Below, piece by piece: positions 21,213 to 64,000 of a DNA stretch of 64,000 nt. The notes under the pieces were generated by a model. The model worked only from the letters and a program-made list of their open reading frames with translations, ran no database searches and had not been told where the DNA came from. Position numbers and translations under genes: made by a program. Each line of letters starts with the position of its first letter. Positions within the stretch are counted from its first letter, which is position 1. Where the stretch lies: contig CM082579.2 in NCBI GenBank assembly GCA_040954595.2, forward strand, positions 12,897,834-12,961,833, written 5' to 3'. This stretch comes from Balanoglossus misakiensis. Its lineage: Eukaryota; Animalia; Hemichordata.

Positions 21213-21646
21213 AGTTTCAATATTAGTTTTTGTTCGGATTTGTTGCTGTCCCTGGGCCAAAAGATTGAAGTAAGTATAATACATATTGTTAATGATTTTT
21301 CCTTGTGTTTGCGCGCAACTTCCCTTAGGTAGCTGCAAGGGCCCTGTATTATATGTTCTAGTTCGGATTGTGCATGACATATCCGTCTTGTAACAAGAGA
21401 ATCCATAAGCAAGTAGGTTGTATAGAAAGAACGGCAGGGTCGGTTTTCGTTGCAACAATTTGCGCTGTTTTCTGCTTGAGTCAGGCCTACGTGTTGGAAT
21501 AATGGCAGACGGACGTATTCGACATTGAGTGCAGCAATGCCAAAACAATACATGGTTCAAAGCAGCAAGTCGGACCAATTGATATCATAAGAATGTCAAG
21601 ATTTACATGTAGCCTATAGGCCCACCAGGGCCTCTTTAATTGACTT

Positions 21647-23175
21647 CTTAGGTCACCACTTCATAAGCGGTCTTACCCGTCATTGGCACAAACAGTCTCA
21701 GGAAGTAAGCTTTAAGCCTACCAATGTAGCTATTGTATTTTCCACTTTTTGTAAGTGAAGCCTGACTGTCGCCTGTCTTAGGTCACCACTTCATAAGCGG
21801 TCTTAACCGTCATTGGCACAAACAGTCTCAGGAAGTAAGCTTTCAGCCTACCAATGTAGCTATTGTATTTTCCACTTTTTGTAAGTGAAGCCTGACTGTC
21901 GCCTGTCTTAGGTCACCACTTCATAAGCGGTCTTACCCGTCATTGGCACAAACACTCTCAGGAAGTAAGCTTTCAGCCTACCAATGTAGCTATTGTATTT
22001 TCCACTTTTTGTAAGTGAAGCCTGACTGTCGCCTGTTTTAGGTCACCACTTCATAAGCGGTCTTACCCGTCATTGGCACAAACAGTTTCAGGAAGTAAGC
22101 GTTCAGCCTACCAATGTAGCTATTGTATTTTCCACTTTTTGTAAGTGAAGCCTGACTGTCGCCTGTCGTAGGTCACCACTTCATAAGCGGTCTTACCCGT
22201 CATTGGCACAAACAGTCTCAGGAAGTAAGCTTTCAGCCTACCAATGTAGCTATTATACCTACCAATGTAGCTATTGTATTTTCCACTTTTTGTAAGTGAA
22301 GCCTGACTGTCGCCTGTCTTAGGTCACCACTTCACAAGCGGTCTTACCCGTCATTGGCACAAACACTCTCAGGAAGTAAGCTTTCAGCCTACCAATGTAG
22401 CTATTGTATTTTCCACTTTTTGTAAGTGAAGCCTGACTGTCGCCTGTCTTAGGTCACCACTTCATAAGCGGTCTTACCCGTCATTGGCACAAACAGTTTC
22501 AGGAAGTAAGCTATCAGCCTACCAATGTAGCTATTGTATTTTCCACTTTTTGTAAGTGAAGCCTGACTGTCGCCTGTCGTAGGTCACCACTTCATAAGCG
22601 GTCTTACCCGTCATTGGCACAAACAGTCTCAGGAAGTAAGCTTTCAGCCTACCAATGTAGCTAGTATACCTACCAATGTAGCTATTGTATTTTCCACTTT
22701 TTGTAAGTGAAGCCTGACTGTCGCCTGTCTTAGGTCACCACTTCACAAGCGGTCTTACCCCTCATTGGCACAAACAGTCTCAGGAAGTAAGCTTTCAGCC
22801 TACCAATGTAGCTATTGTATTTTCCACTTTTTGTAAGTGAAGCCTGACTGTCGCCTGTCTTAGGTCACTACTTCATAAGCGGTCTTACCCGCCATTGGCA
22901 CAAACAGTCTCAGGAAGTAAGCTTTCAGCCTACCAATGTAGCTATTGTATTTTCCACTTTTTGTAAGTGAAGCCTGACTGTCGCCTGTCTTAGGTCACCA
23001 CTTCATAAGCGGTCTTACCCGTCATTGGCACAGTCTCAGGAAGTAAGCTTTCAGCCTACCAATGTAGCTATTATATTTTCCACTTTTTGTAAGTGAAGCC
23101 TGACTGTCGCCTGTCTTAGGTCACCACTTCATAAGCGGTCTTACCCGTCATTGGCACAAACAGTCTCAGGAAGTA
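21647..23175. repeat. 130-bp satellite, left arm (~11.5 units, including a 411-bp higher-order trimer)
   Basis: Units start at 21647, 21777, 21907, 22037, 22167, 22318, 22448, 22578, 22729, 22859, 22989 and 23115. Confidence 0.97.
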
Positions 23176-23489
23176 CCCTACCAGACAAAAGTAATGGGAC
23201 TTATGTCGCGGGAATCACTAGTGATTTCAAGGTGTCAATTCACAGCAAACATCGTGTTTGCGTTTTATCTGTAGCGGGATTCACGAGTGTTTATGGATAC
23301 ACACGGAACGTGTAATTAGCTGAGTACACGAACTTGCGTCAATCGAGAGATAAGGCTGCAACATAACATATTAGATATAGCGCCACCTACGATAAAAGAA
23401 CAGTTATCCTGCTCTAAAATTAATTAATACGGTAGGATGCGATCTGTTATGGGTTGAGGAAATTATTTGTATTCAAACTGGTAATGTCT

Positions 23490-33297: not shown

Positions 33298-36200
33298 TCA
33301 TATTGCCCGGAAAGAAAACCTAATATAGACTAATTCCAGTTCACTTAAACTGACCACACCCCCCCCCCCCCCACACACACACACACTGGGTGCATGGATG
33401 CGACACATTTTGTGCAATATCTGATACACGGTTTTTGTCTAAGCCTGAAATATATACTCAAAAAGGAGTCTGTAAGTAGTATGTAAACTCTCTACTTACT
33501 CAGCATGCTTTGACGATATCGCTCTCTCTCCGAACTCCCTCGCGTTAACCTCCATTATTGTAATAGTTTGTTGGAGCTCTTGGCATTTATTGTCCTCCAA
33601 CGGCTCCGCCAAGTATTTAACTTCCTGTTATAAAACAATAATGACAATATGTGAGTGATACTCAATCTTGCATAACAAAAAGTGTTAATGATCTACCACT
33701 AACATGCTCCTTGCATTTAAATTATATTCCCTTTCACTATCATCTCTTTTGTAGTATTCCATGTTCAGTCACTGGATCCTTTAAAACAAGACATGATATA
33801 AACTGAGTGTTCGTTTTGTTTTTATTGCAAGTTAATAACAAAGGTATATAATTGCCAGGTAAAATAACAACGAGAAGTTCCAAAAAAACTCACATTCAGT
33901 GCATCCTGCGTAAGCGTCGCAGCTAGCATGAGGCACCCCTCCGCTATGTGGTGGGGCTGGTATTGCTGCCGTACATTCATTGACAGCAAGGTTATGTCTG
34001 CCAGATACTACAACGAAATGAAAAATTAATCAAGTCATGTATACAGACAATTATGCCAACCTACTAACATCTAAGACCGAAAATAAGATTAAAAAGTTTG
34101 ATGTTGTTGGAAGTTACAGTTACAAAGCTCAAGTTTAGATGAATCTTACATTAAGTGTGTATACTTTTCAAGATTGCTTGTTTTATTTTGACTAACTTTA
34201 TTAATAAAGTGATGTGTCACTTTTTTATCATCTGTCACATCAGACTTAAATGTTTTCAATCCAAATGTCTTACCTGTGCCACTTCTCTTGTTGTCCGTTT
34301 TATTTTGGGATTTAATTCCCATAGACACCCAAGGAAGGTTGTAACAGGAACTGTTGTTAATTTGAAATTTAGTAATTTCATAATTAACAGTTCCATGTTA
34401 CAAACCTCCCTTGGGGTAAAGGCATCCGCAGTATAGTCAGAAAATGTGGATGCTACAAAAACTGGTACTTCCAGAAGTTTGCTGTTATTGAAAGAAAGAA
34501 AATACCTTAGCATTATTTAAAAATGTGTGTATAGGGATAAACTGTGTTTACGCCATCTTGAAGATTTGCAGTGCATTATGGGTCAATTGAGTTCCGGTAC
34601 GGGGGGGGGGGTAACGTCTAAAACCTATCCAATTTTCCAGCTGTTTTGTCAGATTTTCTTCAAGTAACGTTAGTAGTAGTAGTAGTTACATGAATAAAAT
34701 CTAACTAAACTGCTGGAAAATGAATAGGTTGTAGACGCTACTTCCCCCCCCCCCCGTACCGGAACTCATTTGACCCATAATGCACTGCAAATCTTCAAGA
34801 TGGCGTAAACACAGTTTATCCCTATACATTATTGTAAACAAAAAAGGCGGGTATTGATTTGTCTGGTGGGGTGCTTCAACTTGGCCAATCCACCATGGGT
34901 GTATCCCCTGCCCTATTTTCACTGTTGACTTGTTGACAACCATTTTGGTGAGATTTTTGTCTACTTACTAATGAAGATAATCACCTATGTAGACTATGTA
35001 ATGCATGTAAAAAGGGTGCTGAGCTATGGCAGGTTACAAAATAAGCTTTCTGTTGATTTCAAATCATGGATTTAGTTTGAATTTTATTTTGTTGTAGTAA
35101 TTCAACTGTTTAGGTCATAGAAAAAGACCGAATGTTGATGATTTAAGATGAAACTAACTGCCAAGGTACACAATCTTACTGTTACACAACAAAACCAAAC
35201 ACACACAATTAATGAAAGTAAATCACTACAGACTGATGCCTTACCTAGCGGTAAACAGGCTTGCCGCAGCAACCAATTGCTTGAGTTCCACATGGAACGC
35301 CCGGCACCTTGTTATGAAGCTGTCGAAGTACCATATAGCTGTGTGTACTGTCTCAGGATCAAAATTCAGTTCTGTTGCCACGGCATACATCCAGTCAACG
35401 CAGACTGCTCTGTTATTAAGGTCCCTGGATGTCAATTGCGGGTACATGCTGTACCACACCGGCACACGTTCCTGGTGGAAGAAACAATACCAGTTACACA
35501 CCATGAATCTTTGTAAACAGTTAAATCCCTTGTAGAGAACCCCCCCCCCCCAAATCACAATGGCAGTTCACAGTTCACTTCAATTCAAAGCTTGAATATT
35601 TCGAATGCAGTCCAACTCCAAAACCATTCCGCAAGCTACTGAAGTGTAACTAACTCATGGAGTGTCAAAACGTAACCCCTTATTCCTAGTGTTTAACCCA
35701 CGTTCGATAACCATTAAGCTGTGCATGTTGAAAATCACAACAGGTGTGTTTCAACACAGATTGTTTATTACATTCAGACTGTCTACTAGAAGTATGTATA
35801 CTACAAAGACTGTTTATTTCTTGTTTATTCTGTCTTGGATTTATTATCAGGTGCGAGTAAAACGAAAAGCTCGCACTAAATTAGAACTGGATTAGATCTC
35901 ACACATCGACGTATCTCGTGTTCTCATTTGGGCCATTCCGTCTCTCTCCATGTCGAACCTATCCCCAAGTGTACGCCGCACAGTACATGTTTACAACCGA
36001 CTAGTTGTTGCACTGCTCTAATACTAGATTTTATTGCACAATAGTGCAATCAAACAGACGGGAAATCCTCAACAAAGTGAATGGAAACTGATTGTGCATT
36101 CCGTTTGTCGTAATCTAGATGGATAATGTAAACATTAAATGGTTGCTTTAAACCCCATGACTGTGGTCGAGTATAAGTAAGCTTTTTTTTCATATTCGTT

Positions 36201-40900: not shown

Positions 40901-41032
40901 GGTCCGACTAAGGTCCGACATAGTCGGGAAGTAGGCAAAGTTGTTGTTAAAGTACAGTCTAGTTTAATGTTTTAGACGATACTAGACGATAAATATCCGA
41001 TATCGTATAAATGTGCAATGTCGCGCTGTCCT
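37993..41032. mobile_element. 3-kb non-autonomous foldback element filled with 115-bp and 126-bp tandem arrays
   Basis: 50-bp perfect inverted repeat gcgcgacattgcacatttatacgatatcggatatttatcgtctagtatcg starting at 37999 and ending at 41026. Flanking direct repeat catttatggc at 37983-92 and 41033-42. Empty-site paralogues at 50411 and 55844. Confidence 0.9.
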
Positions 41033-42639
41033 CATTTATGGCGGTTGAGCAACTTTTGATTTGCTAAAAGAGGGTAGTTGGAGTCAAATATCGATCAAAT
41101 AATAGGGCGGGATGGTGCCCGACGTTCTGATCCAAGCCCCACTCAAACTTGGAAAGAATTAGAAAATATTATCGAATTTATCCTTTAAAATTTGCTAGTC
41201 TGTCTCATGGTCCGCCAACCTTCCCACTCTGATATAGAAGTTAAAATCGGATAATGCCTATGCAAATGTCGCGATATACTTCGTTTACACAAAAAGTGCA
41301 TATCCTTTTATTTCCTTCCGATCAAGACTTGTCCCCGGTCCATTCGCTTACAAGTATTATGTCATCACGAAACAAATGTCTCGCAACGAAAGTCCCACGA
41401 GATCGCGTAGTCCCAGACATAAACGCAAATACCCACCATGACATGGAAACATTTTTCAAGCAATTGGGTAAAAGTAAGAGAAAAAGGGTTTGACTTTACT
41501 TTAAAATCTATAATGGGACAGCGACTAATGGGCTCGTACCCTGTAAAAAATTCAATAGGCATTATCAACACGGACCAGTGATTAGCAGACGTCACGTGAC
41601 TTCAGAATAGGTGGTCGTTTGTACAAGTGGCATGCCAATACGCGTGGTTTTTACGCAATAAGGGACAATGATCGTCTTCCGGTAACCACTTAATGAAAGA
41701 GTAAATTTTGAACTTCCACGATAGCACTTTAGTCCTCTTCCCCTGGAAGCGTGTAGATTTCATGCAATTTCCTCTGTGGTAACTTCTAACTTTCGAAACA
41801 ATGTTTTAAAATTTGTCTTAGCCTGGCTAATTTTAAACCAAAATTAACATACCCGGGAAAGACTGATTTGGTCTTTCGGGCTGTTTGATTCAACATCCTG
41901 CCGACTGTGGGAATTCAAAGCCACCATTCAAATTGGACATGTGGGCGACATCGATTCTGACACCTTTCGTAGGTGTGACTCTTATCCATTAACAATTGCT
42001 TATCTATAAGGCATTAGACATTCCTAACATTCCACGTAAACTTTGACAACAGGTTTTATTAAATGCTAGAGACTGACTATTCATTTTGGCGAGTTTTTCT
42101 CTCTAGTGTCTACAAGTAGGATATAAAGTGTGTATCACTATATATCCACATGTAGAATTATATAAACGGTGTCTTGTATCAAACATAATTAATAGTAAAA
42201 GGGCAGTGAGAGAGAGAGAGACTTTGTCCCTTTCAGTGGCCGATCACAATATGGCCATTCACGAGGCCGCATTTACGTAGAAAGCAATGTCTTGGCCTTA
42301 CGTGTGCAGCATTTTGTTGAAACTGTCATTTTGACAATGTGTTGAATACGAATACGATGACGATAGCTTCATTGTTTCATGTACCGGTCCTTGCAATTAA
42401 GTAAAGTCCCAGCATTTCTAATGTTATAGACCACTTCCATTAAATAGTTGCATCCATACGGATTATGGAAAGAGAAACCCTTTTAAACATTTGATCAAGA
42501 TTTGGGGTAGATGTGTTGATTATCTTAATTTACACTTACAAGGGAGGACACCTGTATGCGCTGGGAAGGTAAACATAAAACTTTGGTGCGACTGTCCCAG
42601 GGTCTTAAAAACCGCCACGGGCAAGAGAACGTCACACCA

Positions 42640-43263
42640 GCGTACCGCGACGGAAAACACAATTTCGAGTTTGTTTCAAATAAAAAGTGGACCCATCTTC
42701 GCATATACATACAGGCTAAAATGCGAAACAACTTCCAAAGCACTAAAACTTTTGTCCAATGAATTCCACTGTTTTCAATTATTTTACCGCTTGCCTAAAA
42801 TTATTAAGTTCGTGAATCCCGCGAGAATTACTAAGCGGTCCAAGTCAGGTTCACGCTTCAAATGCAGGCACAGATCTGGAGACACACAATTCCCGTGGCG
42901 TCGACATCATTTTTAAATGCCAGAATTTCAGTTTTTGCCATAAGACGCAGTTTGATGTGTAGGTGAACTTGATCTAACGGGGAATCGTAGATTGTTAACG
43001 TGTTTGGGGAATCAATGAACTTTTAACTGTTCAGACAATAAAGTCATTCTACAAAGCTTGCGCATGCATGGATATACCACCGTAAGATCGCTGACGTACG
43101 GTACAACCAAAGCGTTTTTGATCAAACAGCCTAAATAGTATACCAGAATACGTAAACGTCTTACTCATTAACATTTTCCCGATCAACCACCCCACGTAAA
43201 GGAAACGATCTTGGGAATCCCGTAGGAGTCACTATCGCATCCGGGCTACTTGTCACTGAGTTC
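42640..43263. repeat. ~620-bp module, inverted copy of part of the 1.9-kb tandem unit
   Basis: Reverse complement of ~59737-60360, e.g. gcatccgggctacttgtcactgagttca / tgaactcagtgacaagtagcccggatgc. Confidence 0.92.
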
Positions 43264-43916
43264 ACTAATATGCATTATTTCTTACTTTTCGTAAACATTA
43301 ATATAGTTTTAAAAAGTGACACCTCTGTCAACGTTGCCAAAAAAAAACACAAAATCATCACATTCACAGGCAACTTTCTAGCAAGACGAAACAGCTTTGA
43401 AGGTACTGTCCGGATTAAAGGCAGTATTTGACAGTTGCAAACACCGAAACAGGCTTTAAAATGCTATTTCATTCACAAATGATCATGGCTGTTCTGTTGC
43501 GTTACAGAAATAGTCTACGGTTCGACACAATTTACCTGGGTATTGAACTTCATGATACTGCTCATTTCGTGGGAGCGTTTAAATAAAACAGATTGCGAAC
43601 AAAACTGCAATAGTTCAAGATATGTACAGATCAACTTAATCTGACAACGAACTCTGACTTTTAAAACTTACAAAAGGGATGTCAGACACAAACATGCCAT
43701 TGCGGCGACATGCGTCTCCTAACCTAATATGTTTGATTAGGATTTTAGCACCTTTCCGTCTTACACACCATTCAGAATGTTTATTCGTTGTTTAGATCCC
43801 ACGGGTCTTGGTGCCACGTCTCACCTTTGACATTAAAAACTATACATGCCAACATGTATTTAAAGCCACTGTTGGTTGCGACACGGAATCAAACCGTAGA
43901 AAGCATCGTAGCAATC

Positions 43917-46649
43917 ATGTCGACAGATAACACAAGTTGGTATACCACGGCGAGACACCGCACGAAACGTAAGTTTACACTACATTTACAATATAATTTG
44001 TCTTTTCTTGTGATAGGAAAAAAATCGCACTTAGAAGTACTATAGAACGAAGAAAGATAATCACAAACGTAATTCATTTGTATTTCAGAACCGAGTTTTG
44101 CTCTTGTCAAGTTTCTTAGCGATGAGACAGTGGCAGTCATGCCAAAGTCGAAGATTACCGCCGGATCTCTCCGGGTTGGTAACGAAGTGTCTGTTCGGTG
44201 GGACGACAAAAAAGAGTACAAGGCCGTCGTGTTGGTGACTGGAGGTAATGTACACTTTAATGTTGTTGAGTCAACTATAATTTTGGGCATAATGTATATA
44301 CATGTAGTAAAAGAAAGTAAGTTTGAAACGATATTTGCCACAAGTACCGCGAAACTGGTAAAATTCAATACACATGATTAACTATAAAGTGACCGTGCCT
44401 GTGCTAAGGGGTGAACTTTACATCTTGCAGCCCTGAAATAGATGAAAAACTGTCGGTCCGCATTTCAATTTGCTTCGGACTTTTGTCAAAAAATTTACTA
44501 GTTACTATTTTGTCAATCCTGTCTTGAAATGCCATAGAAAAGAAAAAGAACTTGCGGGAGAAAGGCTCGTGGCCATGGGCTACTCGTGCGACTTCATCGG
44601 TGAAAGTCGGAATGGCGACGATTATTTTTCTTTTTTTGGTTTTTAAGAGTTTTGTTGAGGTCGACGAACGAAGCTATTATTGGTTTACCATATTCCAGTT
44701 TTGATATATCTCCACAAAAAATTCATTTCAGTGCTTCCGGTCTCACGAAATTCCGAGAAGCGCAGTACATGAACACAAAATCAGAAAAAGATAGTTGGAA
44801 AAATGTCTGATAGGTCCAAACTACAGTAGCACATGTTCAGCTTCCGAGCCATTCCAAAATGCACAACAGCGACGAAGAAATCGCTCGGAGCAAATTTCTA
44901 CACTCCATTCCACAATTTCCTCGCCAAATCGGTTCCGGAACTTATTCCGCGTTTTCCTATCAAAGGATGTCGCTGTATTTGTCGATTTACTAGTATTCAA
45001 CCGCAATCAGTGAAAATTGGGGGCCGAAACGACCTGTTCCCCATCATGTTCTGTACAAGTGTGTTATGATGTAAAATCGTGCATGAAAAAGGGGCTATGT
45101 ATGTCATTAACACTAGGGGTCATTTGCCAGATACCCGATTTTGACACAAATTTTACGATAATCTTAAAATGTCCAGTACCCAACAAACGTACTTTGCGCT
45201 ATGCTGGCTCATGGAAAAAATGGATGACCACTGTGTACAATCTGGTATTTTTGTACAACGCGGTGACAAGTAAATTGTCCTTGTAAGGCAAACTTTAGAT
45301 ACTAGAACATAATTATCCGACAAAAGACACATTTATTGTGAATGGATGTTGTTATTGACTCATTTCAACTACAAGTAAACAAAATGTCCAAACATTTGAT
45401 AAGCGATGATAAACAAATCCACGTGGTATGCTTATTGGCAGGCGTAAACAGTCTCGCAAAGTCACATTGTGTTTAACGAGACTTCATGATGCCTTTCATA
45501 ATCACATCTCGCAAATCACGTGCAATTCGATACGTCATGACGGTACCTTTTAATTTAATTAATATAATCGTACATGAAGTAGCTCGTACAGCAATTATCA
45601 GTTACAATTAATAATCTTTCGGTAAATACTGACTCGTTCATGCTGTTGGGCTCATAGTGCTTGCACAAACGGAACACATATTTACAACTTTTGTTTCCCT
45701 GCTTATAGAAGAAAAGAAAAAGTTGGTTGACCACCAAGATCAATTGGAAAAAGAATATTTTGGGAAACAGCCATCAACAAGCCTGCTGCCATCACCAAGA
45801 AAGAAACAAGACACAAGGAAGAGATTGAAATTTCCTAAAGAAGCCCCCGTTAAGGTAATAAAGCTGATGTTTGTAGACACGTTGTTACGTGGGGTGTCTT
45901 TATTTGAAGGAAATTTGTCTTAACACAGCGCACAGGTCATTGGAAGTGTCGGGAAAGGATCTCGTATGGTTCAATTCATTCACTTTGTCATGCAAAGCGG
46001 ATTTCATTAAGTCTTATAAACGAATTGCGATTATGAGTGTATTAAATTTGTTCTTATTTATCAACAGAAACCAATAAACTTGATGGAGGGTAGTCCACCC
46101 TCGGATGTGGATCTGGAGTCTAGCCACCGGGCAACACCAGTGAGCCATGTGGGCAGCCCGGTGGTTTTAAATGTGCGGGGACAATGTTGCAGTAACAGGC
46201 GGCTGGAAGAAAAATTAGATAAGCTAATAAATTCTGTAGACAATATGTCCGCCATTTTAAGCAATTTTTTAGCAAGTGTGTCAGGCAACAGACAAATCAA
46301 CCCAACCTCGCCGACCTGCGTTGAGGTTGAGGAAAGCGTCGTTGACGATCAGGCAAATCATCAATATTTGCCTGATGAAGTCATTTTTGACGCTCACAAA
46401 AAATCAGGGGCTGATAGCAGGCGTTTTGCCACAAGGCTTAACAGACTCCTCTTCAAAGAAGAGGAGCGGAAAATAAGCAATGTCAGTGGGACTAGAGGGA
46501 AAGTCAAACTCGATGAAAGTAGGGTAGACTATATAAAACGACTGGTTTTTAAATTTTACCCGTGCGCGACATCTGACAAGATTAGCCAATGGGCACACTG
46601 CATCAGAGGCATTGATGAATCAAACAGGGCCCTGAACAGAAAAAAATAA
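43917..46649 (+). CDS. BEN-domain protein, 4 exons, ~311 aa
   Basis: Exons 43917-43968, 44089-44244, 45709-45854, 46068-46649 are GT-AG and in frame, totalling 936 nt. N-terminal beta-rich module (FALVKFLSDETVAVMP..VSVRW..YKAVV), short coiled coil, and C-terminal FATRLNRLLFKEEER..SNVSG..KLDESRVDYIK..W..CIRGIDESNR resembling BEN. Confidence 0.82.
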
Positions 46650-47104
46650 ATATAGTCTATCCTACTTTTTCGGGTTTTACTTTTCCTCGGTCTTACTGTT
46701 ATTACTTATTTTCACTCGTATATTGTTATGTCTTGTCCAGTAAGGCCCCACAAATAATTGTGTTTCTTTGATGCTTTTTTTCTTTATTTTCTTTTTTCGT
46801 TTTCTAAATTATGTATTGTATTAACACTTTTCAAGACATTTCCTTTTTAAAATTTTAATTAGTGATTAAATAAATTTTGTAAGTTCCACCAACACAGTTC
46901 TCCTGTTTGTGTGTAAATTGTATGTGACGAAAGCAAACAAGTAGACATGATTTAAAAAGATTATTATTTTATTATGAAAACAAAAGCCACACCATAGACA
47001 AAACCACATGGAAGTAAAAACTAACTCGGCAATTTACAAAAAAAAATTAAGCTTATAAGAACTGAAAACGAAAAATGTTGGTCAGGGGACATACGTCAGC
47101 TTCT

Positions 47105-48145
47105 CTATGAATTTGTGTTACGTCCAGCACATTCTATGACTTTACGCATGGTCGAGAAAATTTTATTTATACGTTTCCGACAAAATTCTGGTGTTACATG
47201 CAATTTCCAATAATCTTTAATTCCCTTGACTAGCTCATCCATTGTGTTTGGTTTAACTGTTTCTGCAATGTATTGCTTCAAGTAATGCCAAACATCTTCG
47301 ATTGGGTTAAGATCTGGGCTTTGTGGTGGAAATGGCATTACTTCAATATTGTTTGATTCAAAGAAGCTTTTGGTATATCTACTTGTGTGGGATGGTGCAG
47401 AATCTTGTTGAAACCTGTGTCCATTTGGGAAATACTTATTTAGGAAAGGTATTGCAGATTTCTGCAACAATTGGGCGTAAACGTGAGAATCTTCATTTTC
47501 TTTGAAGATTACTATTTTGGTTGCCCCTTTCTTTGAAATTCCCGCCCATACATTAATTTTGGGGACAAATTTGGCTTTCATTTTTTTCTTAACGGGCTCA
47601 TCAGCTTTCCGCCACGTAAATCTTGCATGTTTTTCCATTTGGATGCTCGATTCGTCTGTCCATACAACATTGTCAAATGTGTCATTTCTGTACAAAGCAT
47701 CAATGCACCATCGAACCCGTTTCTGTTGGTTTATTTGGCTTATCATTGCTCCGTACTTAGTTTTTCTTCTTATCCATCCCATGGACTGTCTAGCACGGGA
47801 TATTGTCCTTGTGTGGAGGTTTGTACCAAACTCTTTCCTTAGTAATGTTTGAAGTGCAGATGCTTTTAATTCGTCGTTTTCCCTCATCTTCCGGTCGACA
47901 AACGTGCGCATGTTTCCAGACATGACTGCTGGGCGTCCACTTCTTCTTTTGTCGGCAATCCTGTCCTCTTCAGTATAACGTTTTACAATGGCTCCAACGG
48001 TTTTTCTGTTGATTGCTATACCACTTTGATTCAAATGTCGTGTTATGTTCATTATTCCCTTGCCAGATTTCCACTTTCTGATAACTTTCACTCTGGTCGT
48101 CATAGTTGATCTCACCATGATGATAGGAATCTGAATTATATGCAA
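47105..48145 (-). CDS. IS630/Tc1/mariner DD34E transposase, intact
   Basis: 346-aa ORF with HTH region, RSGRP, WTDES, VWAGIS, FQQDSAPSH and SPDLNPIE. There are 34 residues between the second D and the E. Confidence 0.95.
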   Translation of the reverse strand: MHIIQIPIIMVRSTMTTRVKVIRKWKSGKGIMNITRHLNQSGIAINRKTVGAIVKRYTEEDRIADKRRSGRPAVMSGNMRTFVDRKMRENDELKASALQTLLRKEFGTNLHTRTISRARQSMGWIRRKTKYGAMISQINQQKRVRWCIDALYRNDTFDNVVWTDESSIQMEKHARFTWRKADEPVKKKMKAKFVPKINVWAGISKKGATKIVIFKENEDSHVYAQLLQKSAIPFLNKYFPNGHRFQQDSAPSHTSRYTKSFFESNNIEVMPFPPQSPDLNPIEDVWHYLKQYIAETVKPNTMDELVKGIKDYWKLHVTPEFCRKRINKIFSTMRKVIECAGRNTNS

Positions 48146-48568
48146 TTAAAAAACTGAATTATTTGAATTGAGAATATCAAAAATGGCGAATATTGAACTA
48201 CATGTGTACAATATGAACTATAATCATACAAAGTAACATGCCACGTCTGTACTTCCACTATTATTAGCATGGATATTCTGCAAGCGACACATGGGACATA
48301 GGGCTGCAGTGGAGATAGGAATTTGTAAGTTTTCGTTTTCAAAGCTTAATGTTTTAATGCAGAATGATTCCTTTTTAATTCATCAGAATTTACTCTGTGC
48401 GTAATACAGTTTAACCACTATCGGGTTGTATTCGAGTGATCCTGTGAAAACACCTAAAGGGTTATGAAAGCTCTGCTAATTTTCACATTTCTCAAATACC
48501 CATTAACAAATCCTGACCTGAATCTCGTTCATACGTGCTCGCATTGGTGAAATAGCGCAGCCAGACAA

Positions 48569-48609
48569 TTGGCGCGAAAAGGCTCATGGGAGCTTCTGAC
48601 GTGACGTCA
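48569..48609 (-). promoter_or_regulatory. Candidate transposase promoter with an E2F-like site and a CRE
   Basis: TTTTCGCGCCAA (minus strand, 48569-80) and TGACGTCA (48602-09), ~430-460 bp upstream of the transposase ORF. Motif match only. Confidence 0.35.
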
Positions 48610-48832
48610 TTAACGATAAATGGAAGCGCAATCCTCCAGCTTGTGCGGCTATTCAAATTATCGTCTACCGGTACTTAATTAAGATTTAAGAAAGCAACTA
48701 TTTTAGCAATAATCGTAATCAATGTTTGTGCGCCAACAAAATGGTTTATTGTTGTGCTGAAAGATGCTGAAAAAATTGAGTTTTCATCGCTTTCCACTTT
48801 CCTTTCCGAAGTTACATTTGTACCGGAGGCAG

Positions 48833-50888: not shown

Positions 50889-51025
50889 CAGTGATTGCGC
50901 TAGACCTCAAAATCTTGTGAAAATCAGGGGTCCCTAAATTATTTTTGTGGGTCCCCATTTTTCCAATATATTATAACACATACGTACTCGCAAACACTTA
51001 CTAGGGAAGTCAACATCACAGTGTA

Positions 51026-51687
51026 CAGTGAAACCTGGCAAAACCGACCTCACCTCGGACCACACATTCTGGTCGTTTTACTCAGAGTGGGCGTGGCTCC
51101 CCCCCCCCATCATGAACCCTTTGACCCCGATCTCATACACACAGTGCACAGCAGACGCACGCACGATATACACGCTTGTACATTCGTATTTCATGTTTAT
51201 TTCAAATAAAAGGTAATTAAAAAACTTCTGTCCAGTGTAATTTCTGAAAATTGTTGAAAATAAAAAAAGTAAATTCAAGTTCGTTCGCGGGCTAAGTGGG
51301 TAAACAGGAAGACGTACACTGTATTGTTTACAAAAAGAGATTCACACCTCGCCACTGGGAAGGCTTATCAGTAAATTGCTAACGAAGTGTTGACAAACCG
51401 TTGCTTTGACTATTGTTCGGAAGACAGGAAAACCAAAATTAGCACATCGTTGCGGTAATTTTTGATCAAAGACATGATTTCAACCTTTACAAAAAGTGAT
51501 CGGTCGGTCTATTCAGGTTGAATTTGAGGGGTGGGACCGACCAACGCGGTCGGTGTTCGAAGTAGACAGTGGTCGGTATTCAGAGTGACTTTTACCATTG
51601 GCGTCAATGGGCAATTTGCGGGACTAAACAGATCGGTCGATTTTCACAGTCGGTTTACCCAGGGGTCGGTTTTGCCAGGTTTTACTG
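51026..51687. mobile_element. Tc1/mariner-pogo-type MITE with TA duplication
   Basis: ta|cagtgaaacctggcaaaaccgacc ... ggtcggttttgccaggttttactg|ta. Confidence 0.85.
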
Positions 51688-56322: not shown

Positions 56323-57947
56323 GTTTAAACTGGGTAAGACTTATTTGGTCTTTAACACTGTGTGGTTCTGAAGAAATATACTGATCGTGGGAAAACAAAC
56401 ATCCACCACTTTATTCTCACCGAATCTGGGCGACACCGATTCTGACGCCTTTCGTAGGTGTGAAGCATAACCATTAGAGATTTCTTATCTGTGATTCGTC
56501 GGATTTTCTTAACAGCCCACACGTAACATTTTTTTAAAATGACAGCAGGTTGCAAAGTCGCTCTATGAAACTGCACACATTCATTTCAACAAAATGTATG
56601 CCATATCCCCAAACGTTGGTGACACGTTCTTGTTAATTCAGTAAACCTGGAAATGAATGCGCAGTTTTTTTTTCGCGCTTTGGGAGGGCCAGCTGATAAC
56701 GCGCAGTTTAATTTTAGCGTAAGACGACGTGAGAGAAACCATTGTGTTGAAGACAAAGCAATGGACCAATAGTGCAACTTTGTCGGCACCGTTTCAGTGC
56801 CGTCCTCCCCAACTCTATTTGTATTACCCGCCACTAATTACAAGATCATACGTTTCTAAAGTGATTTTGATATACGAATAAAACAGCATCATGCCAAAAC
56901 AAGTCCGTGTCTCTGATCTTGTGTTGTCTTTGGAATCGAGTTCAAAGGTCACTTTACTGTGATCGCTACGTGTTTCCTCATTCCTGCTAATCAAAATAAA
57001 TGACGTTCTAGCCAACTTGTCTTCAGTACGACGTCCAAGTAGTTCCAAAATTTCAAACAACTTTGTGCACGATTCTGAAGAATTTTCAAACGTAACGAAA
57101 TCGTAATTTTACAAACACAGAGCCTCTGTAAACGTCTCTATTTTTCTACATGACCCAAGAAATCAATCGCGGTAATTTGTACACGCATCGCCACTCGATC
57201 TTGCCGTCAACGAGCCGTTTTTCAAAGACATTCTCTGAAGCATTTCCAGCAGCTCAGCGATGATGATGCTCCGATTTCCGAAGTCAAAGTCTCGTTTGTC
57301 GGAGCTCAAGCCAGAACACGCGCAGTGGTTAGTTATTTTGACAGCGTCCGATGTATAAGCGTGTATAGTGAAGTGTAAACAAGGAAGCAGGTACAACGTT
57401 CGTATCGTATGCCCGTTTGGGGGCATTGAAAACATATGCGCAGCTTTAAATTCGCGCTCACGATCCAGCGCGAAATTGCGCGAAAAAAAAACTGCGCAAA
57501 AAATTTCCAGGTTTACAGAATGTTGCCGATCGCATCAACCATACACACGACCGCATTTACGAACAAAATAAACGCTCCGTCTTACACGTGCCGCCTTTTG
57601 TTGAAACTGACAATTTGTTGATCTGCATATGATGCCTTTATTGTTTCTGTGTACTACCTGAGCACGAAATTAACGTTTTCTGTCTTGGTGATTCACATAC
57701 GATAGGTTGTTCTTTTTTTTTTTTTACAACGAGACAGTGTTAATGTGGTCAAGCTATATAGAGCGGGGGGTTCGATTTTCCCCTGCATGATAGCTTTCGA
57801 CACCACTTCGGGTTGGGGGGGGGGCTGACAGAACCCTGCAGTATGTAGGGGCGTGCCCGACATGCGTAACCAAACGGTGCAGTGTTCGTTCGTCATCAGT
57901 CGTAGTTCCCTGAAAGCGTATAGATTTCGGACAATTTTCCTTATGGG

Positions 57948-60900
57948 TATACTACTTAAGCTGTTTGATCAAAAACGGTTTGGTTGACCGTACGTCATCG
58001 GTCTTACGGTGGTATATCCATGCATGCGCAAGCTTTGTAGAATGACTTTATTGTCTGAACAGTTAAAAGTTCATTGATTCCCCAAACACGTTAACAATCT
58101 ACGATTCCCCGTTAGATCAAGTTCACCTACACATCAAACTGCGTCTTATGGCAAAAACTGAAATTCTGGCATTTAAAAATGATGTCGACGCCACGGGAAT
58201 TGTGTGTCTCCAGATCTGTGCCTGCATTTGAAGCGTGAACCTGACACGGACCGCTTAGTAATTCTCGCGGGATTCACGAACTTAATAATTTTAGGCAAGC
58301 GGTAAAATAATTGAAAACAGTGGAATTCATTGGACAAAAGTTTTAGTGCTTTGGAAGTTGTTTCGCATTTTAGCCTGTATGTGTATGCGAAGAAGGGTAC
58401 ACGTTTTGATTTGAAACAAACTCGAAATTTTGTTTTCCGTCGCGGTACGCTAGGTGAAGTTCACGTAACACCGATCTCACGCGCAACTCCTACCACCTAG
58501 TGATTCCCGCGGGATTTTTTCCCTTTTAATTTTGGCAAGTGTTTTTTTTTTTATAATAAATCAGTTCTGTACAAAATCATGAAATGAAAACCATGCAATT
58601 CTTTCAAGAAAGAAAAGAAACCGACAATGATTGCAAGACCACTTCTTGGACGACGACCGGCGATGCATTGAAAGTCGACGCCTTCCGTTTCAGTTGTTAT
58701 CACGTGGCAAACCACGTAGCAAATCCAACTACGACAGTTGGGTTGACTGTGTACGGTACCGGTACTTCCACACAAAAATACGTCCATTAGCAAGAGCGTG
58801 GAGGACATTACCGGTTCAATCTGATGAGTGCGAGTCCTAATGTTTTACAAATGCTCACAGGCTGGCATATGGTTATTTATTAGAATAGTTAAAGGTATTA
58901 CAAATGAAATATTACGTAGTTATAGATATTAGGGGATCATTGTCCCCGCATTGCCATAAATCTGTCGACATCAAGCAAAACATCACAGGTCAGAGGGGGA
59001 GAGCCCTGCGTACAGGTCTTGAGTTCCCGACGTTACAGTAGACGGCGTAAGCGGTACAGTTGCCTGATTCAATTAGGCGATTATTGTGATAGCAAACAGT
59101 TACGTAAGTTTACTCGGTATCAGTTGTGTATACAGGTATACCGTATAGGCGCTTCCCACCGTGACTTTTAACCCTAAACAGCCCAGCTCTGCATATTGGT
59201 GCGGAGTAACGATTTCACGCGATGCTGCAACATTCAAATCGCAAAACGCTGTGTTCTGTCGATGTGTTAGGCGGATACTGAGAGCTTGCCGGTACTCGGC
59301 AAACTGATTTTCCTGCCGAAATAAAAAAAAACACACACTGCCAGCACGTCCGCCCATCTACCAACTTCATCGACAACAGTTGCCAGTCGCGTTTACCGAT
59401 ACTAGTGCGAGGACGAGCGGGGTGCGCGGGGTTAAATTCCTTCAATCACTGTCCCTCTATCACACGGTGCTTTAATGTTGAACTCACCGACAATGCTTCA
59501 TAATAGTATCGCATAATTATTGTATCGAGGATATAATATTTCTACGCCATTGCCGCTAGACTCCGACTGGTGGGGAAGACTATAATTTTGTGCTAACACT
59601 TTTTAAAACTGTGGTTCACCTGAGAGACAACAATCAATTACGTAATTCACCGACACGCTGGAGTGACCATGTGTAATCACTGTCAGTCAGTATAGCGGTC
59701 ATCAATTAATCATCACGTCAACTTTATTACAGCATGAACTCAGTGACAAGTAGCCCGGATGCGATAGTGACTCCTACGGGATTCCCAAGATCGTTTCCTT
59801 TACGTGGGGTGGTTGATCGGGAAAATGTTAATGAGTAAGACGTTTACGTATTCTGGTATACTATTTAGGCTGTTTGATCAAAAACAATTCGGTTGTACCG
59901 TACGTCATCGATCTTACGGTGGTATATCCATGCATGCGCAAGCTTTGTAGAATGGCTTTATTGTCTGAACAGTTAAAAGTTCATTGATTCCCCAAACACG
60001 TTAACAATCTACGATTCCCCGTTAGATCAAGTTCACCTACACATCAAACTGCGTCTTATGGCAAAAACTGAAATTCTGGCATTTAAAAATGATGTCGACG
60101 CCACGGGAATTGTGTGTCTCCAGATCTGTGCCTGCATTTGAAGCGTGAACCTGACACGGACCGCTTAGTAATTCTCGCAGGATTCACGAACTTAATAATT
60201 TTAGGCAAGCGGTAAAATAATTGAAAACAGTGGAATTCATTGGACAAACGTTTTAGTGCTTTGGAAGTTGTTTCGCATTTTAGCCTGTATGTTTATGCGA
60301 AGATGGGTACACGTTTTGATTTGAAACAAACTCGAAATTTTATTTTCCGTCGCGGTACGCTAGGTGAAGTTCACGTAACACCGATCTCACGCGCAACTCC
60401 TACCACCTAGTGATTCCCGCGGGATTTTTTCCCTTTTAATTTTGGCAAGTGTTTTTTTTTATAATAAATCAGTTCTGTACAAAATCATGAAATGAAAACC
60501 ATGCAATTCTTTCAAGAAAGAAAAGAAACCGACAATGATTGCAAGACCACTTCTTGGACGACGACCGGCGATGCATTGAAAGTCGACGCCTTCCGTTTCA
60601 GTTGTTATCACGTGGCAAACCACGTAGCAAATCCAACTACGACAGTTGGGTTGACTGTGTACGGTACCGGTACTTCCACACAAAAATGCGTCCATTAGCA
60701 AGAGCGTGGAGGACATTACCGGTTCAATCTGATGAGTGCGAGTCCTAATGTTTTACAAATGCTCACAGGCTGGCATATGGTTATTTATTAGAATAGTTAA
60801 AGGTATTACAAATGAAATATTACGTAGTTATAGATATTAGGGGATCATTGTCCCCGCATTGCCATAAATCTGTCGACATCAAGCAAAACATCACAGGTCA

Positions 60901-62550
60901 GAGGGGGAGAGCCCTGCGTACAGGTCTTGAGTTCCCGACGTTACAGTAGACGGCGTAAGCGGTACAGTTGCCTGATTCAATTAGGCGATTATTGTGATAG
61001 CAAACAGTTACGTAAGTTTACTCGGTATCAGTTGTGTATACAGGTATACCGTATAGGCGCTTCCCACCGTGACTTTTAACCCTAAACAGCCCAGCTCTGC
61101 ATATTGGTGGGGAGTAACGATTTCACGCGATGCTGCAACATTCAAATCGCAAAACGCTGTGTTCTGTCGATGTGTTAGGCGGATACTGAGAGCTTGCCGG
61201 TACTCGGCAAACTGATTTTCCTGCCGAAATAAAAAAAAAACACACACTTCCAGCACGTCCGCCCATCTACCAACTTCATCGACAACAGTTGCCAGTCGCG
61301 TTTACCGATACTAGTGCGAGGACGAGCGGGGTGCGCGGGGTTAAATTCCTTCAATCACTGTCCCTCTATCACACGGTGCTTTAATGTTGAACTCACCGAC
61401 AATGCTTCATAATAGTATCGCATAATTATTGTATCGAGGATATAATATTTCTACGCCATTGCCGCTAGACTCCGACTGGTGGGGAAGACTATAATTTTGT
61501 GCTAACACTTTTTAAAACTGTGGTTCACCTGAGAGACAACAATCAATTACGTAATTCACCGACACGCTGGAGTGACCATGTGTAATCACTGTCAGTCAGT
61601 ATAGCGGTCATCAATTAATCATCACGTCAACTTTATTACAGCATGAACTCAGTGACAAGTAGCCCGGATGCGATAGTGACTCCTACGGGATTCCCAAGAT
61701 CGTTTCCTTTACGTGGGGTGGTTGATCGGGAAAATGTTAATGAGTAAGACGTTTACGTATTCTGGTATACTATTTAGGCTGTTTGATCAAAAACAATTCG
61801 GTTGTACCGTACGTCATCGAGCTTACGGTGGTATATCCATGCATGCGCAAGCTTTGTAGAATGGCTTTATTGTCTGAACAGTTAAAAGTTCATTGATTCC
61901 CCAAACACGTTAACAATCTACGATTCCCCGTTAGATCAAGTTCACCTACACATCAAACTGCGTCTTATGGCAAAAACTGAAATTCTGGCATTTAAAAATG
62001 ATGTCGACGCCACGGGAATTGTGTGTCTCCAGATCTGTGCCTGCATTTGAAGCGTGAACCTGACACGGACCGCTTAGTAATTCTCGCAGGATTCACGAAC
62101 TTAATAATTTTAGGCAAGCGGTAAAATAATTGAAAACAGTGGAATTCATTGGACAAAAGTTTTAGTGCTTTGGAAGTTGTTTCGCATTTTAGCCTGTATG
62201 TTTATGCGATGAAACAAACTCAAAATTTTGTTTTCCGTCGCAGTACGCTGGTGTGAAGTTCACGTAACACCGATCTCACGCGGAACTCCTACCACCTAGT
62301 GATTCCCGCGGGATTTTTCCCCTTTTAATTTTGGCATGTGTCAGTATACGTATTTTTTAAAATAATAAATCAGTTCAGTACAATATCATGAAATGAAAAA
62401 AATGGAAACCATGCAATTCTTTGCACGAAAGAAAGAAACCAACATTGCAAGATCACTTAAAAAAACTTGGACGGCGGCCGATACATTGAAATTCGACGCC
62501 TTCCGTTTCAGTTGTTATCACGTGGCAAAGCACGTAGCAAATCCAACTGT
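57948..62550. repeat. 1,908-bp tandem repeat (~2.4 copies) near the right end of the giant element
   Basis: Copies start at ~57948, ~59856 and ~61765. Near-identical short ORFs recur at offset 1908. Confidence 0.95.
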
Positions 62551-63652
62551 GTACGGTTAACTGCGTCCAATTTTCCCCGAAACAACGTCCAGCTTTTCTG
62601 TCGCGATGCATCAATGAATCGACGCAGTGTTTAGCTTGCACGTGGCCGCGTGTTTATCCTGAGCTTTGGACAAACTTTCCAACCCTGATACATGTACCGG
62701 TAGTCACAGATGGACTGTCATAGAGCGTATAACAAAATCACGATTGATCTACCGGTATAATAATCGGACAATTTTGTGCATTCAATAAAAACATTTTGGT
62801 GACGTGATTTGCACTTACGCCACGATGATGTCCGATCTACCCTTCGCAGCAAATAGATCGCTCGGGATCAAAAAAGGCGACGCGGCGTATAGAGGCCGAT
62901 TGGGTATGGATTGGCAATGCCAGGGAAAATGATCCCCTATTAATATCGAATCAATGATTTGCGCCGTAACTTTCGGCAAGAAAAGTTACCAAATTTTACG
63001 CAGACGTGCAGAATTAATTACAAAATACAGCGACATATATCAAGCCTTTGCTCCATTCGCTTCTGTTTCGAAAGTTATTCCCTTGATCACTGAGTGACCG
63101 TAGTGGTGCTGACCTCATGCTCATATACGGTATATCCGTACAAAGGGTGTTAGCAGGGAACGTTTCAATTATGAACGTTATGTACAAATTCTAAAATAGC
63201 TTTGTACAGTGAAAGCAATGACCGTCGAAAATTTCAAAATTAATGGACACGCAAGTCGAGATGAGAGTAATGAATACTTTATTGTGTTACCATGTTGCAA
63301 ATAACGGATTTCGGACGCCGTATTATCTTAAATAATGACACATGATACGGATGAAATTAGGCGAGAGAACACCCAAAGTACTGCAAGGTTCGATAATGGT
63401 TACTGGGTGATAGACGGTTCCTACCAGCACGTATAACGCATTTCCATTCTTGGTCGTATGAGGGCGCAATCAAATACAAGAACGGGATTTTTGCGGGATT
63501 TACTCCCGCGGGAAAATTATCCAGGAAGTTCGGATTTACGGCGTGTTTCACGCGTGTTATATAACACGTCCGCGCGCGAATACTCTCCCGATACCGCAGT
63601 AAACACGAGGGATTTTTGCGGACAGTGGTCCCATTACTTTTGTCCGGTAGGG

Positions 63653-64000
63653 TAAGCTTTCAGCCTACCAATGTAGCTATTGTATTTTCCACTTTTTGTA
63701 AGTGAAGCCTGACTGTCGCCTGTCTTAGGACACCACTTCATAAGCGGTGTTACCCGTCATTGGCACAAACAGTCTCAGGAAGTAAGCTTTCAGCCTACCA
63801 ATGTAGCTATTGTATTTTCCACTTTTTGTAAGTGAAGCCTGACTGTCGCCTGTCTTAGGTCACCACTTCATAAGCGGTCTTAACCGTCATTGGCACAAAC
63901 AGTCTCAGGAAGTAAGCTTTCAGCCAACCAATGTAGCTATTGTATTTTCCACTTTTTGTAAGTGAAGCCTGACTGTCGCCTGTCTTAGGTCACCACTTCA
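63653..64000. repeat. 130-bp satellite, right arm (runs off the window)
   Basis: Same unit as 21647-23175, resuming exactly in phase at TAagctttcagcc. Confidence 0.97.

What the first reader, a model, noticed from the sequence alone, without database searches (positions are those of the whole stretch)
43917..48145. Convergent BEN-domain gene and DD34E transposase as a two-component core
Seen: two intact genes lie tail to tail, 455 bp apart, amid otherwise decayed DNA. Known: BEN is a DNA/chromatin-binding domain found in viruses and transposons, and separate DNA-binding partners are typical of Harbinger and CACTA elements, not classical Tc1. Inference: BEN may bind the subterminal GCGGGA motifs to help pair ends 40 kb apart, or may counter silencing.
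Basis: partly seen in the sequence, partly recalled or inferred. Interest (0 to 1): 0.75.

Follow-up and report, generated by a model that had tools for sequence, protein, structure and literature searches.

The report
Tc1 transposons carrying a BEN partner
This is a 40-kb cut-and-paste jumping gene, likely of a marine animal, whose family, unlike ordinary one-gene Tc1 elements, carries a second conserved gene for a BEN-type DNA-binding protein that likely binds short repeats just inside the element's ends and would thereby help it move.

Summary
Real, and general. A spliced 311-aa gene (hybrid-Tudor-like module, predicted coiled coil, BEN domain) faces an intact DD34E Tc1-type transposase, 455 bp apart. 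Both sit in a 40,477-bp element with 25-bp TIRs and a TA duplication. The pairing recurs in relatives: 48 of 80 transposase loci (8 of 11 lineages) carry the partner, against none in 58 kb outside mapped ends. In a BEN-first search of three further assemblies, 5 of 5 hits face such a transposase. Relatives of 2.4-10 kb enclose both genes within TA-flanked TIRs, and BEN is under purifying selection (dN/dS 0.06-0.20). Their ends carry family-specific CpG-rich arrays; one lineage's equals the BANP motif TCTCGCGAGA. Corrections: the partner is not a device for 40-kb distance, deep co-phylogeny is not shown, and the interior holds an intact cyclin gene. BEN binding to the ends is inferred, untested. 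I found no paper on Tc1 plus BEN, but Repbase and the L31 papers were not searchable. This scan earlier noted Tudor-BEN partners on CACTA elements of other genomes, not on Tc1.

The parts
23174..23175 (.). TA target-site duplication, left
   Evidence: satellite unit interrupted at its TA
23176..23200 (+). Left TIR, 25 bp; shares the core CAAAAGTAAT in the same register (positions 11-20) with TIRs of relatives such as L030
23201..23400 (.). Left subterminal region: two GCGGGA(A/T)T sites (23208, 23274); CpG 6.5 per 100 nt (29 of 319 window tiles reach this)
33496..35504 (-). Cargo: intact four-exon cyclin gene (exons 35504-35245, 34481-34274, 34007-33894, 33624-33496; 236 aa), cyclin-A-like box; a palindromic MITE-like repeat sits in intron 1
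   Evidence: Pfam Cyclin_N 7.6e-11; 3 of 3 introns GT-AG, open frame; PDB cyclin A2 E=6e-5; variant contigs show other copies in the same sample
42627..43264 (-). Inverted partial copy of the 1.9-kb unit, upstream of the BEN gene, with a one-mismatch palindrome at 42817
43917..43968 (+). BEN gene exon 1 (17 codons; least certain exon, no homology support)
44089..44244 (+). BEN gene exon 2: hybrid-Tudor-like module
   Evidence: profile vs KDM4A Tudor E=0.0055; model pLDDT 83; ARID4B Tudor Z 9.3, rmsd 4.0, 56 aligned; RBBP1 Z 8.4, rmsd 2.8, 57 aligned
45709..45854 (+). BEN gene exon 3: basic linker with NLS-like runs
46068..46649 (+). BEN gene exon 4: predicted short coiled coil (by eye) and C-terminal BEN domain
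46650..47104 (.). 455-bp shared 3' region with poly(A)-like signals on both strands; no terminus
   Evidence: one contig of run X1 spans 46349-48738 without differences (X1 may be the source of the window)
47105..48118 (-). Tc1-type DD34E transposase, 337 aa, with its own N-terminal HTH region
   Evidence: (Sleeping Beauty E=1.7e-18)
57946..62548 (.). About 2.5-3 tandem copies of a 1.9-kb unit, each with the palindrome TCCCGCGGGA (58505, 60415, 62304) next to a degenerate TIR-core-like stretch: an inner end-like site facing inward
63428..63627 (.). Right subterminal region: CGGGA cluster and palindrome at 63504; CpG 11 per 100 nt, higher than all 319 window tiles
63628..63652 (-). Right TIR, 25 bp
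63653..63654 (.). TA target-site duplication, right

Best explanation
This is a TA-flanked Tc1-type (DD34E) cut-and-paste transposon whose lineage keeps, inside its ends, a second gene for a hybrid-Tudor-like plus BEN protein, and that protein likely binds the CpG-rich repeat arrays just inside both ends and would keep them open and presented to the transposase. SHOWN: both genes are intact; they lie within one TIR pair; the pairing recurs across the clade; the partner is under purifying selection; the folds match BEN and hybrid Tudor; arrays exist at the ends. INFERRED: the transposase binds the 25-bp TIRs itself through its own HTH region and cuts at TA, as Tc1 does (established knowledge). 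The BEN protein binds its family's array motif (here TCCCG/CGGGA), oligomerises through the coiled coil, and contacts chromatin through the Tudor-like module, acting like En/Spm TnpA (role recalled) as an end-licensing helper that can be supplied in trans. The window's copy is an inflated member: about 35 kb of nested repeats, internal duplications and a cyclin gene were gained between the ends. The two-gene architecture alone I put at about 0.95; the confidence given is for the end-binding mechanism.
For: Linkage: 48 of 80 loci, 24 of 35 families (90% id) and 8 of 11 lineages (70% id) have a BEN or Tudor-like exon; the 3 lineages without are contigs of 1.9-2.2 kb. A BEN profile built without any locus sequence finds 21 of 80. 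0 hits in 58,472 bp outside mapped ends. BEN-first search of three assemblies: 5 of 5 hits face a clade transposase, 4 within 0.7 kb and 1 at 6.1 kb inside one TIR pair. Of 8 strong transposase loci there, 7 have an HMM-detected BEN and 1 a weak one. Both genes enclosed by TA plus TIR: L013 6.9 kb, L030 8.8, L031 8.1, L069 3.05, L070 2.4, L135 10.1, and L065 5.2 kb (left end cut by the contig edge). dN/dS: BEN 0.06-0.20 in 6 of 11 pairs (5 saturated at synonymous sites), Tudor-like exon 0.07-0.18 in 5 of 9 (4 saturated). The clade's terminus pattern hits the element only at 23176 and 63652. 21 of 23 clade-type ends reach the 95th percentile of CpG density of 1817 locus tiles. TCTCGCGAGA occurs 27 times in 369,635 bp, all in one lineage; 12 are in L013, 6 at each end, mostly at 21-bp steps. 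That is the reported BANP motif, and BANP's array preference is TCXCG, X = T >> A~C (PMC10206803, passages), which the window's TCCCG fits. BENs with an IDE..R last helix tend to go with C-preceded CG motifs, those with I.K..Q with TTCG/ATCG (post hoc).
Against: No binding, expression or transposition datum. Arrays could be transposase sites; motif and BEN type are confounded with transposase descent. In the helix-versus-motif table the window's own ends (0.19-0.20 vs background 0.16) and L070 do not separate clearly. The window's left array is weak, and its two subterminal regions share no more 6-8-mers than shuffles (314, 109 and 80 of 500 reach the count). L132 has both TIRs and a weak BEN-like gene but 0-1 CpG per 100 nt at its ends; L134 has 6-7 and L128's candidate end 5. 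Deep co-phylogeny is absent (p=0.63; all 17 pairs p=0.06), and linked BENs are not one clade among 176 domains. L012/L014 pair a lineage-0 transposase with a lineage-1-like BEN. The window's transposase is a long branch, 42% at best to any relative, so the closest kin were not sampled. BEN-less TIR-bounded copies exist (L063; L062 likewise lacks BEN next to its left end), although they look like internal deletions. No control with another Tc1 clade in animal DNA was run.
Confidence: 0.55

Rival explanations
1. The BEN protein binds the element's CpG arrays as a transcription or anti-silencing factor (or as a self-limiting repressor) for the element's promoters, and takes no part in end pairing or cutting.
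For: BEN proteins are transcription factors (PMC10206803 abstract passage; PMC5704228 passage). The N-terminal module resembles Tudor domains of chromatin proteins. In lineage 1 the left end lies 0.4-1.0 kb before the transposase. A near-palindrome lies 1.1 kb upstream of the window's BEN gene. The transposase has its own HTH region.
Against: Arrays are equally strong at the promoter-less right ends (L013, L030, L031, L069). In the window the transposase is 15-24 kb from either array.
Confidence: 0.25
2. The arrays are extra transposase sites, like the inner repeats of Sleeping Beauty (recalled), and the BEN gene is selected cargo that acts on host chromatin or host genes.
For: An inner TIR-core-like copy exists in the window's 1.9-kb units. 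Motifs follow transposase lineage as well as BEN type. The BANP-like motif is also a host promoter motif. The element also carries a cyclin.
Against: Array motifs differ from the TIR core, which is conserved across lineages while arrays change. One array equals a known BEN-protein motif.
Confidence: 0.13
3. The window's pair or its 40-kb ends are accidental: the BEN gene came from another element (for example a CACTA-type one), or the distant ends belong to a different non-autonomous element.
For: Tudor-BEN genes were noted on CACTA-type elements by this scan (unchecked notes). The window's BEN is closer to proteins of unknown context (up to 56% over 76 aa) than to most linked BENs (16-33%). 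The interior is a mosaic of nested repeats. The core shows no sister copy in the one sample held.
Against: The same convergent layout at 0.15-0.7 kb recurs in at least 4 lineages plus further assemblies. L128 has that layout (336 bp) and a BEN 45% identical to the window's. No terminus lies between or near the two genes. The distant TIRs carry the clade's core in register.
Confidence: 0.07

Closest known systems
Tc1 family (DD34E) of the IS630-Tc1-mariner superfamily, e.g. Sleeping Beauty (PDB 5CR4)
   Same: DD34E triad, N-terminal HTH region, about 340 aa, short TIRs, TA duplication (family features from PMC7325037 and 10.1101/656579, passages).
   Different: Typical elements are 1-3 kb with one ORF. 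These are 2.4-10 kb (40.5 kb here), with a second conserved spliced gene and CpG-rich subterminal arrays.
Multi-ORF ITm groups: TBE and Tec of ciliates, Dici of yeasts, L31 of bivalves and corals
   Same: ITm transposase with extra ORFs inside TIRs: TBE and Tec three ORFs (PMC7325037, passages), Dici three CDS and DD34E (PMC13469147, sections 8 and 14). An L31 ORF2 is recalled only.
   Different: None of the passages read names a BEN or Tudor protein. L31 is DD37E and groups with Tec, whereas this clade is DD34E. What L31's ORF2 encodes I could not read.
PIF/Harbinger (transposase plus Myb/SANT-like protein)
   Same: Works like it in outline: a separate, faster-evolving DNA-binding partner kept with the transposase (PMC9179366, passages).
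   Different: Different transposase superfamily and TSD. The partner is BEN plus Tudor-like. This transposase keeps its own HTH. Harbinger's two genes show global congruence; here deep congruence was not found.
En/Spm (CACTA) TnpA, and the CACTA-type animal elements with Tudor-BEN partners noted by this scan
   Same: Second protein paired with subterminal repeat arrays (TnpA role recalled). Same domain order Tudor-like, coiled coil, BEN in the scan's notes (unchecked).
   Different: CACTA transposase, termini and 2-3-bp TSD are absent here; the element has Tc1 chemistry.
Host BEN proteins BEND3 (BEN4), BANP, BEND5/6, Insensitive
   Same: BEN fold and last-helix pattern; the BANP motif occurs in the arrays of one lineage. 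An N-terminal module plus coiled coil plus single BEN recalls BEND5 (recalled, not tested).
   Different: Mobile, family-specific and 12-36% identical between lineages; binding specificity unknown.

Membership tests
IS630-Tc1-mariner, Tc1 family | DDE triad with DD34E spacing | tested here: met
   D155, D239, E274; 34 residues
IS630-Tc1-mariner, Tc1 family | TA target-site duplication | tested here: met
   window; relatives with differing flanks end at TA
IS630-Tc1-mariner, Tc1 family | Terminal inverted repeats | tested here: met
   25 bp, 24 of 25 match
IS630-Tc1-mariner, Tc1 family | N-terminal paired-like HTH DNA-binding region | tested here: met
   HTH_32 1.7e-6 and HTH_Tnp_Tc3_2 2e-5, both below curated cut-offs; GRP motif visible in the translation
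IS630-Tc1-mariner, Tc1 family | Placement inside the Tc1 clade in a tree with named reference families | not tested
   tree of 55 unnamed relatives only; nearest solved structure is Sleeping Beauty, 1.7e-18, versus Mos1, 4e-5
IS630-Tc1-mariner, Tc1 family | Single ORF, 1-3 kb (typical, not defining) | tested here: not met
   second gene and larger size
L31 (DD37E) | DD37E spacing | tested here: not met
   DD34E versus DD37E
L31 (DD37E) | Homology of the second ORF to L31 ORF2 | not testable with these tools
   L31 ORF2 papers and sequences not held
PIF/Harbinger | Harbinger-type transposase and 3-bp TSD (recalled) | tested here: not met
   DDE_3/Tc1-type transposase and TA
PIF/Harbinger | Partner binds the transposase and the ends | not tested
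   no complex prediction obtained; no assay
CACTA / En-Spm | CACTA-type termini and Tnp2-type transposase (recalled) | tested here: not met
   termini CCCTA with TA duplication; Tc1 transposase
BEN domain | Pfam PF10523 above the gathering score | tested here: inconclusive
   19.3 bits vs 23.2; 5 of the 11 linked BEN-bearing ORFs scanned pass it (L035, L008, L041, L061, L012)
BEN domain | Five-helix BEN fold, homologous to solved BEN domains | tested here: met
   profile E=1.5e-20 to BEND3; model with five helices, best Foldseek rows are BEN domains
BEN domain | Sequence-specific DNA binding through the last helix | not testable with these tools
   needs EMSA, PBM or DAP-seq
Hybrid (interdigitated) Tudor | Fold match to ARID4/KDM4 Tudor | tested here: met
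   Z 9.3 (rmsd 4.0, 56 aligned), 8.4 and 7.3, next row 4.8; Foldseek best E=0.023, TMq 0.78
Hybrid (interdigitated) Tudor | Aromatic cage for methyl-lysine | not tested
   only one Trp is invariant in 23 sequences; cage not examined

The most novel reading that the evidence does not exclude
Tudor-BEN is a portable end-licensing module that marine-animal transposons of unrelated superfamilies (Tc1 here, CACTA in the scan's other notes) have each adopted and exchanged. Every family evolves its own BEN-motif pair written as CpG arrays under its ends, keeping them open in a methylating genome. Such elements are a source of host BEN transcription factors and their promoter motifs, such as BANP and TCTCGCGAGA.
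Probability: 0.2. Interest if true: 0.9.

Novelty: new variant of a known kind. Interest (0 to 1): 0.73.

Why it matters
Animal Tc1 elements are the textbook one-gene transposons and the source of gene-delivery tools. A widespread lineage with a conserved second chromatin- and DNA-binding gene changes that picture. It also gives an immediately testable natural series: several families, each with its own BEN protein and its own end array, so binding specificity and helper function can be tested by swaps. It offers an explanation for the many orphan BEN genes in invertebrate genomes (the window's BEN exon found 557 library proteins), and links a host transcription-factor motif to transposon ends. 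The window's copy suggests such ends may have moved 40 kb with an intact cyclin gene, if the cargo was gained before the last jump, which is not shown.

Tried and rejected
No whole genome is held for the window, so copy number and empty sites could not be read. No RNA holder was listed; expression and splicing are untested. The word-index search with the BEN exon found nothing (132 candidates); the HMMER search did. Cluster look-up gave no accessions or names, so linkage by accession number failed. A local TIR pair around the two genes was sought and not found: the only long inverted repeat is the 638-bp unit copy, which has no clade-type terminus. Pfam scan of 147 of the 177 interior frames of at least 58 aa (left out: frames over the two genes, frames scanned, repeat frames) found only the cyclin. 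Viral contigs gave only distant IS630-like hits (21-45% id); 0 BEN hits in 46 loci, 598 kb, a weak control because it is not animal DNA. L130 and L131 (distant Tc1, contigs of 1.6-1.7 kb) had no BEN, too short to inform. G003 gave no BEN match; the decayed L134 there has only a by-eye BEN-like remnant, which I did not count. The BEN-first search is not exhaustive: my profiles found more BEN or Tudor-like pieces in L136, one inside a clade-ended 6.4-kb insert and two weak ones not tied to a transposase. My rough chance figure for the 5 of 5 result (about 1e-10) ignores that the assemblies were chosen by their transposases and that copies are related. No transposase-BEN complex prediction was obtained. 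L066 ends (not clade-type) and first-guess L070 ends were left out of the 21-of-23 CpG count. Rejected: BEN as an adaptation to 40-kb length; membership of L31, Harbinger or CACTA.
Full report
Observation. The window is eukaryotic (spliced genes; likely animal, by inference from BEN, cyclin and transposon content) and no genome is held. The + strand gene has four exons joined by GT-AG introns in phase, giving 311 aa. Its last exon scores Pfam BEN at E=0.0013, under the cut-off. A 110-sequence profile hits BEND3 at 1.5e-20 and BANP at 1.7e-9, and a pLDDT-94.8 model matches BEN structures first. Exon 2 folds like the hybrid Tudor of ARID4/KDM4. The - strand gene is an intact 337-aa DD34E transposase closest to Sleeping Beauty among solved structures. 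The stops are 455 bp apart.

The element. A 130-bp satellite is interrupted at a TA by 40,477 bp (23176-63652) with 25-bp TIRs, 24 of 25 matching, and resumes in register. No local TIR pair surrounds the two genes. A pattern written for the termini of this clade hits the element only at its two ends. The TIR shares a 10-base core, in register, with relatives such as L030; that core resembles Tc1 TIRs in general (recalled), so it shows Tc1 type rather than a unique pairing. The interior is a mosaic of high-copy repeats and internal duplications, but it is not all decayed: it holds an intact four-exon cyclin gene with other copies in the same sample. Contigs of that one sample, which may be the source of the window, cover the core at one depth without differences and bridge the two genes. 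That gives no sign of sister copies, but contigs cannot show absence.

Recurrence. Of these, 48 carry a BEN domain (22) or the Tudor-like exon (37): 24 of 35 families and 8 of 11 lineages. The three lineages without are contigs of at most 2.2 kb. A profile built without locus sequences recovers 21 of the 22 BEN loci. Layout is mostly fixed within a lineage and differs between them: head to head (3 lineages), mainly tandem (1), tail to tail as in the window (4). Seven relatives of 2.4-10.1 kb have both genes inside TA-flanked TIRs, one with its left end cut by the contig edge. No hit lies in 58,472 bp outside mapped ends. In three further assemblies that hold such loci on long contigs, all 5 BEN matches face a clade transposase; 7 of 8 strong transposase loci have an HMM-detected BEN and the eighth a weak one. 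BEN and Tudor-like exons are under purifying selection in every pair that is not saturated. BEN-less copies L062 and L063 look like internal deletions. A control with another Tc1 clade in animal DNA was not run.

Co-evolution. Within lineages BEN identity tracks transposase identity, and lineages 2 and 5 join in both trees. Between deep lineages there is no signal (p=0.63 on 7; p=0.06 on 17), and linked BENs are scattered among 159 library domains of unknown context. This fits saturation of a 90-residue domain or repeated exchange of partners; the data do not choose.

End arrays. 21 of 23 clade-type ends are at or above the 95th percentile of CpG density, through short family-specific repeats. 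In one lineage the unit is TCTCGCGAGA: 27 copies in 370 kb, all in that lineage, six at each end of L013, mostly 21 bp apart. This is the reported BANP motif, and BANP's microarray preference is TCXCG (PMC10206803, passages and section 7). That paper found binding largely insensitive to methylation, against an earlier report that it cites. The window's right end is its CpG-richest 200 bp and holds TCCCGCGGGA, which recurs in three 1.9-kb units beside a TIR-core-like stretch. The left end has two half sites and is weaker. Against: L132's ends lack CpG, the window's two ends share no excess of short words, and the link between BEN helix type and motif is post hoc, confounded by descent and unclear for the window itself.

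Mechanism. Most likely the transposase recognises and cuts the TIRs itself, and the Tudor-BEN protein binds the arrays and keeps the ends accessible or assembled, as TnpA does for En/Spm (recalled): 0.55. Rivals are a purely transcriptional role (0.25), host-directed cargo with transposase-bound arrays (0.13) and an accidental pair in this window (0.07). Since 2.4-10-kb relatives carry the partner, it is not an adaptation to 40 kb.

Literature. Seen: PMC7325037 (passages; no whole-word 'BEN' in its main text), PMC13469147 (abstract, sections 8 and 14, passages), 10.1101/656579 (passages), PMC9179366 (passages), PMC5704228 (passages), PMC10206803 (passages and section 7). Not held and recalled only: Abhiman 2008 and Dai 2013, and the L31 papers that report an ORF2 (searches list only two papers that cite L31). 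Searches for a BEN-carrying Tc1 or DNA transposon gave no paper that describes one: 1 hit, bracovirus BEN genes; 0; 23 listed, 2 with the term, neither on this by listing; 6 listed, none on this by listing; 0; 0. Subscription journals and Repbase are outside the library, and I opened no supplements; element tables in the supplements of PMC7325037, or Repbase entries, may already contain these families. This scan's notes report Tudor-BEN partners on CACTA-type elements of other genomes and two-gene ITm elements with other partners. None was found for Tc1 plus BEN, or for these sequences.

Verdict. A new variant of Tc1-type transposon with a conserved BEN partner gene; architecture well supported, mechanism inferred. 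Interest 0.73.

Noticed in passing
window 33496-35504 (-): Intact spliced cyclin gene inside the transposon; the segment from about 30.2 to 37.9 kb has variant copies in the same sample, so it may be a mobile cyclin family. Not found in the 80 related loci.
   Followed up: partly
window 57946-62548 and 42627-43264: A 1.9-kb unit in about three tandem copies with an inner end-like site, plus an inverted partial copy upstream of the BEN gene. Older diverged duplications link 37.7-43.3 kb with 50.0-58.5 kb.
   Followed up: partly
window 21646-23175 and 63653-64000: Young 130-bp satellite (copies mostly 95-100% alike) that serves as the insertion site; useful for dating.
   Followed up: no
window 8112-9452 (-): 446-aa open frame with DUF7869 (1e-15); looks like a Sola-type transposase (label recalled). 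Outside the element.
   Followed up: no
window 4813-6894 (-): RecQ-like helicase pieces (DEAD 8e-7), as in Academ elements (label recalled). Outside the element.
   Followed up: no
window 1958-3499 (-) and 14176-14676 (-): A 513-aa frame resembling a DIRS gag-like ORF, and a CACTA-transposase-like fragment (both labels recalled, no Pfam support).
   Followed up: no
window 42060-42233, 50914-51797 (with 51022-51691 nested), 52723-53147, 34528-34828, 38000-41000: Very high-copy short repeats, MITE-like elements and a 115/126-bp satellite nested in the element; contigs that skip 51021-51691 show the empty site of that MITE.
   Followed up: no
L136 267-6677: A 6.4-kb insert with clade-type ends that carries a broken BEN gene and a different IS630-like transposase, apparently inserted into another member's transposase gene.
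   Followed up: partly
L127, L128, L132-L139: Contigs of 0.04-2.6 Mb in prokaryote MAGs that carry Tc1 elements, one with an apparent intron (L132), and BEN genes: likely animal host DNA binned into these genomes.
   Followed up: no
L012/L014 5163-5641: A lineage-0 transposase with a Tudor-like exon upstream and a lineage-1-like BEN downstream: a possible partner swap or adjacent second element.
   Followed up: no
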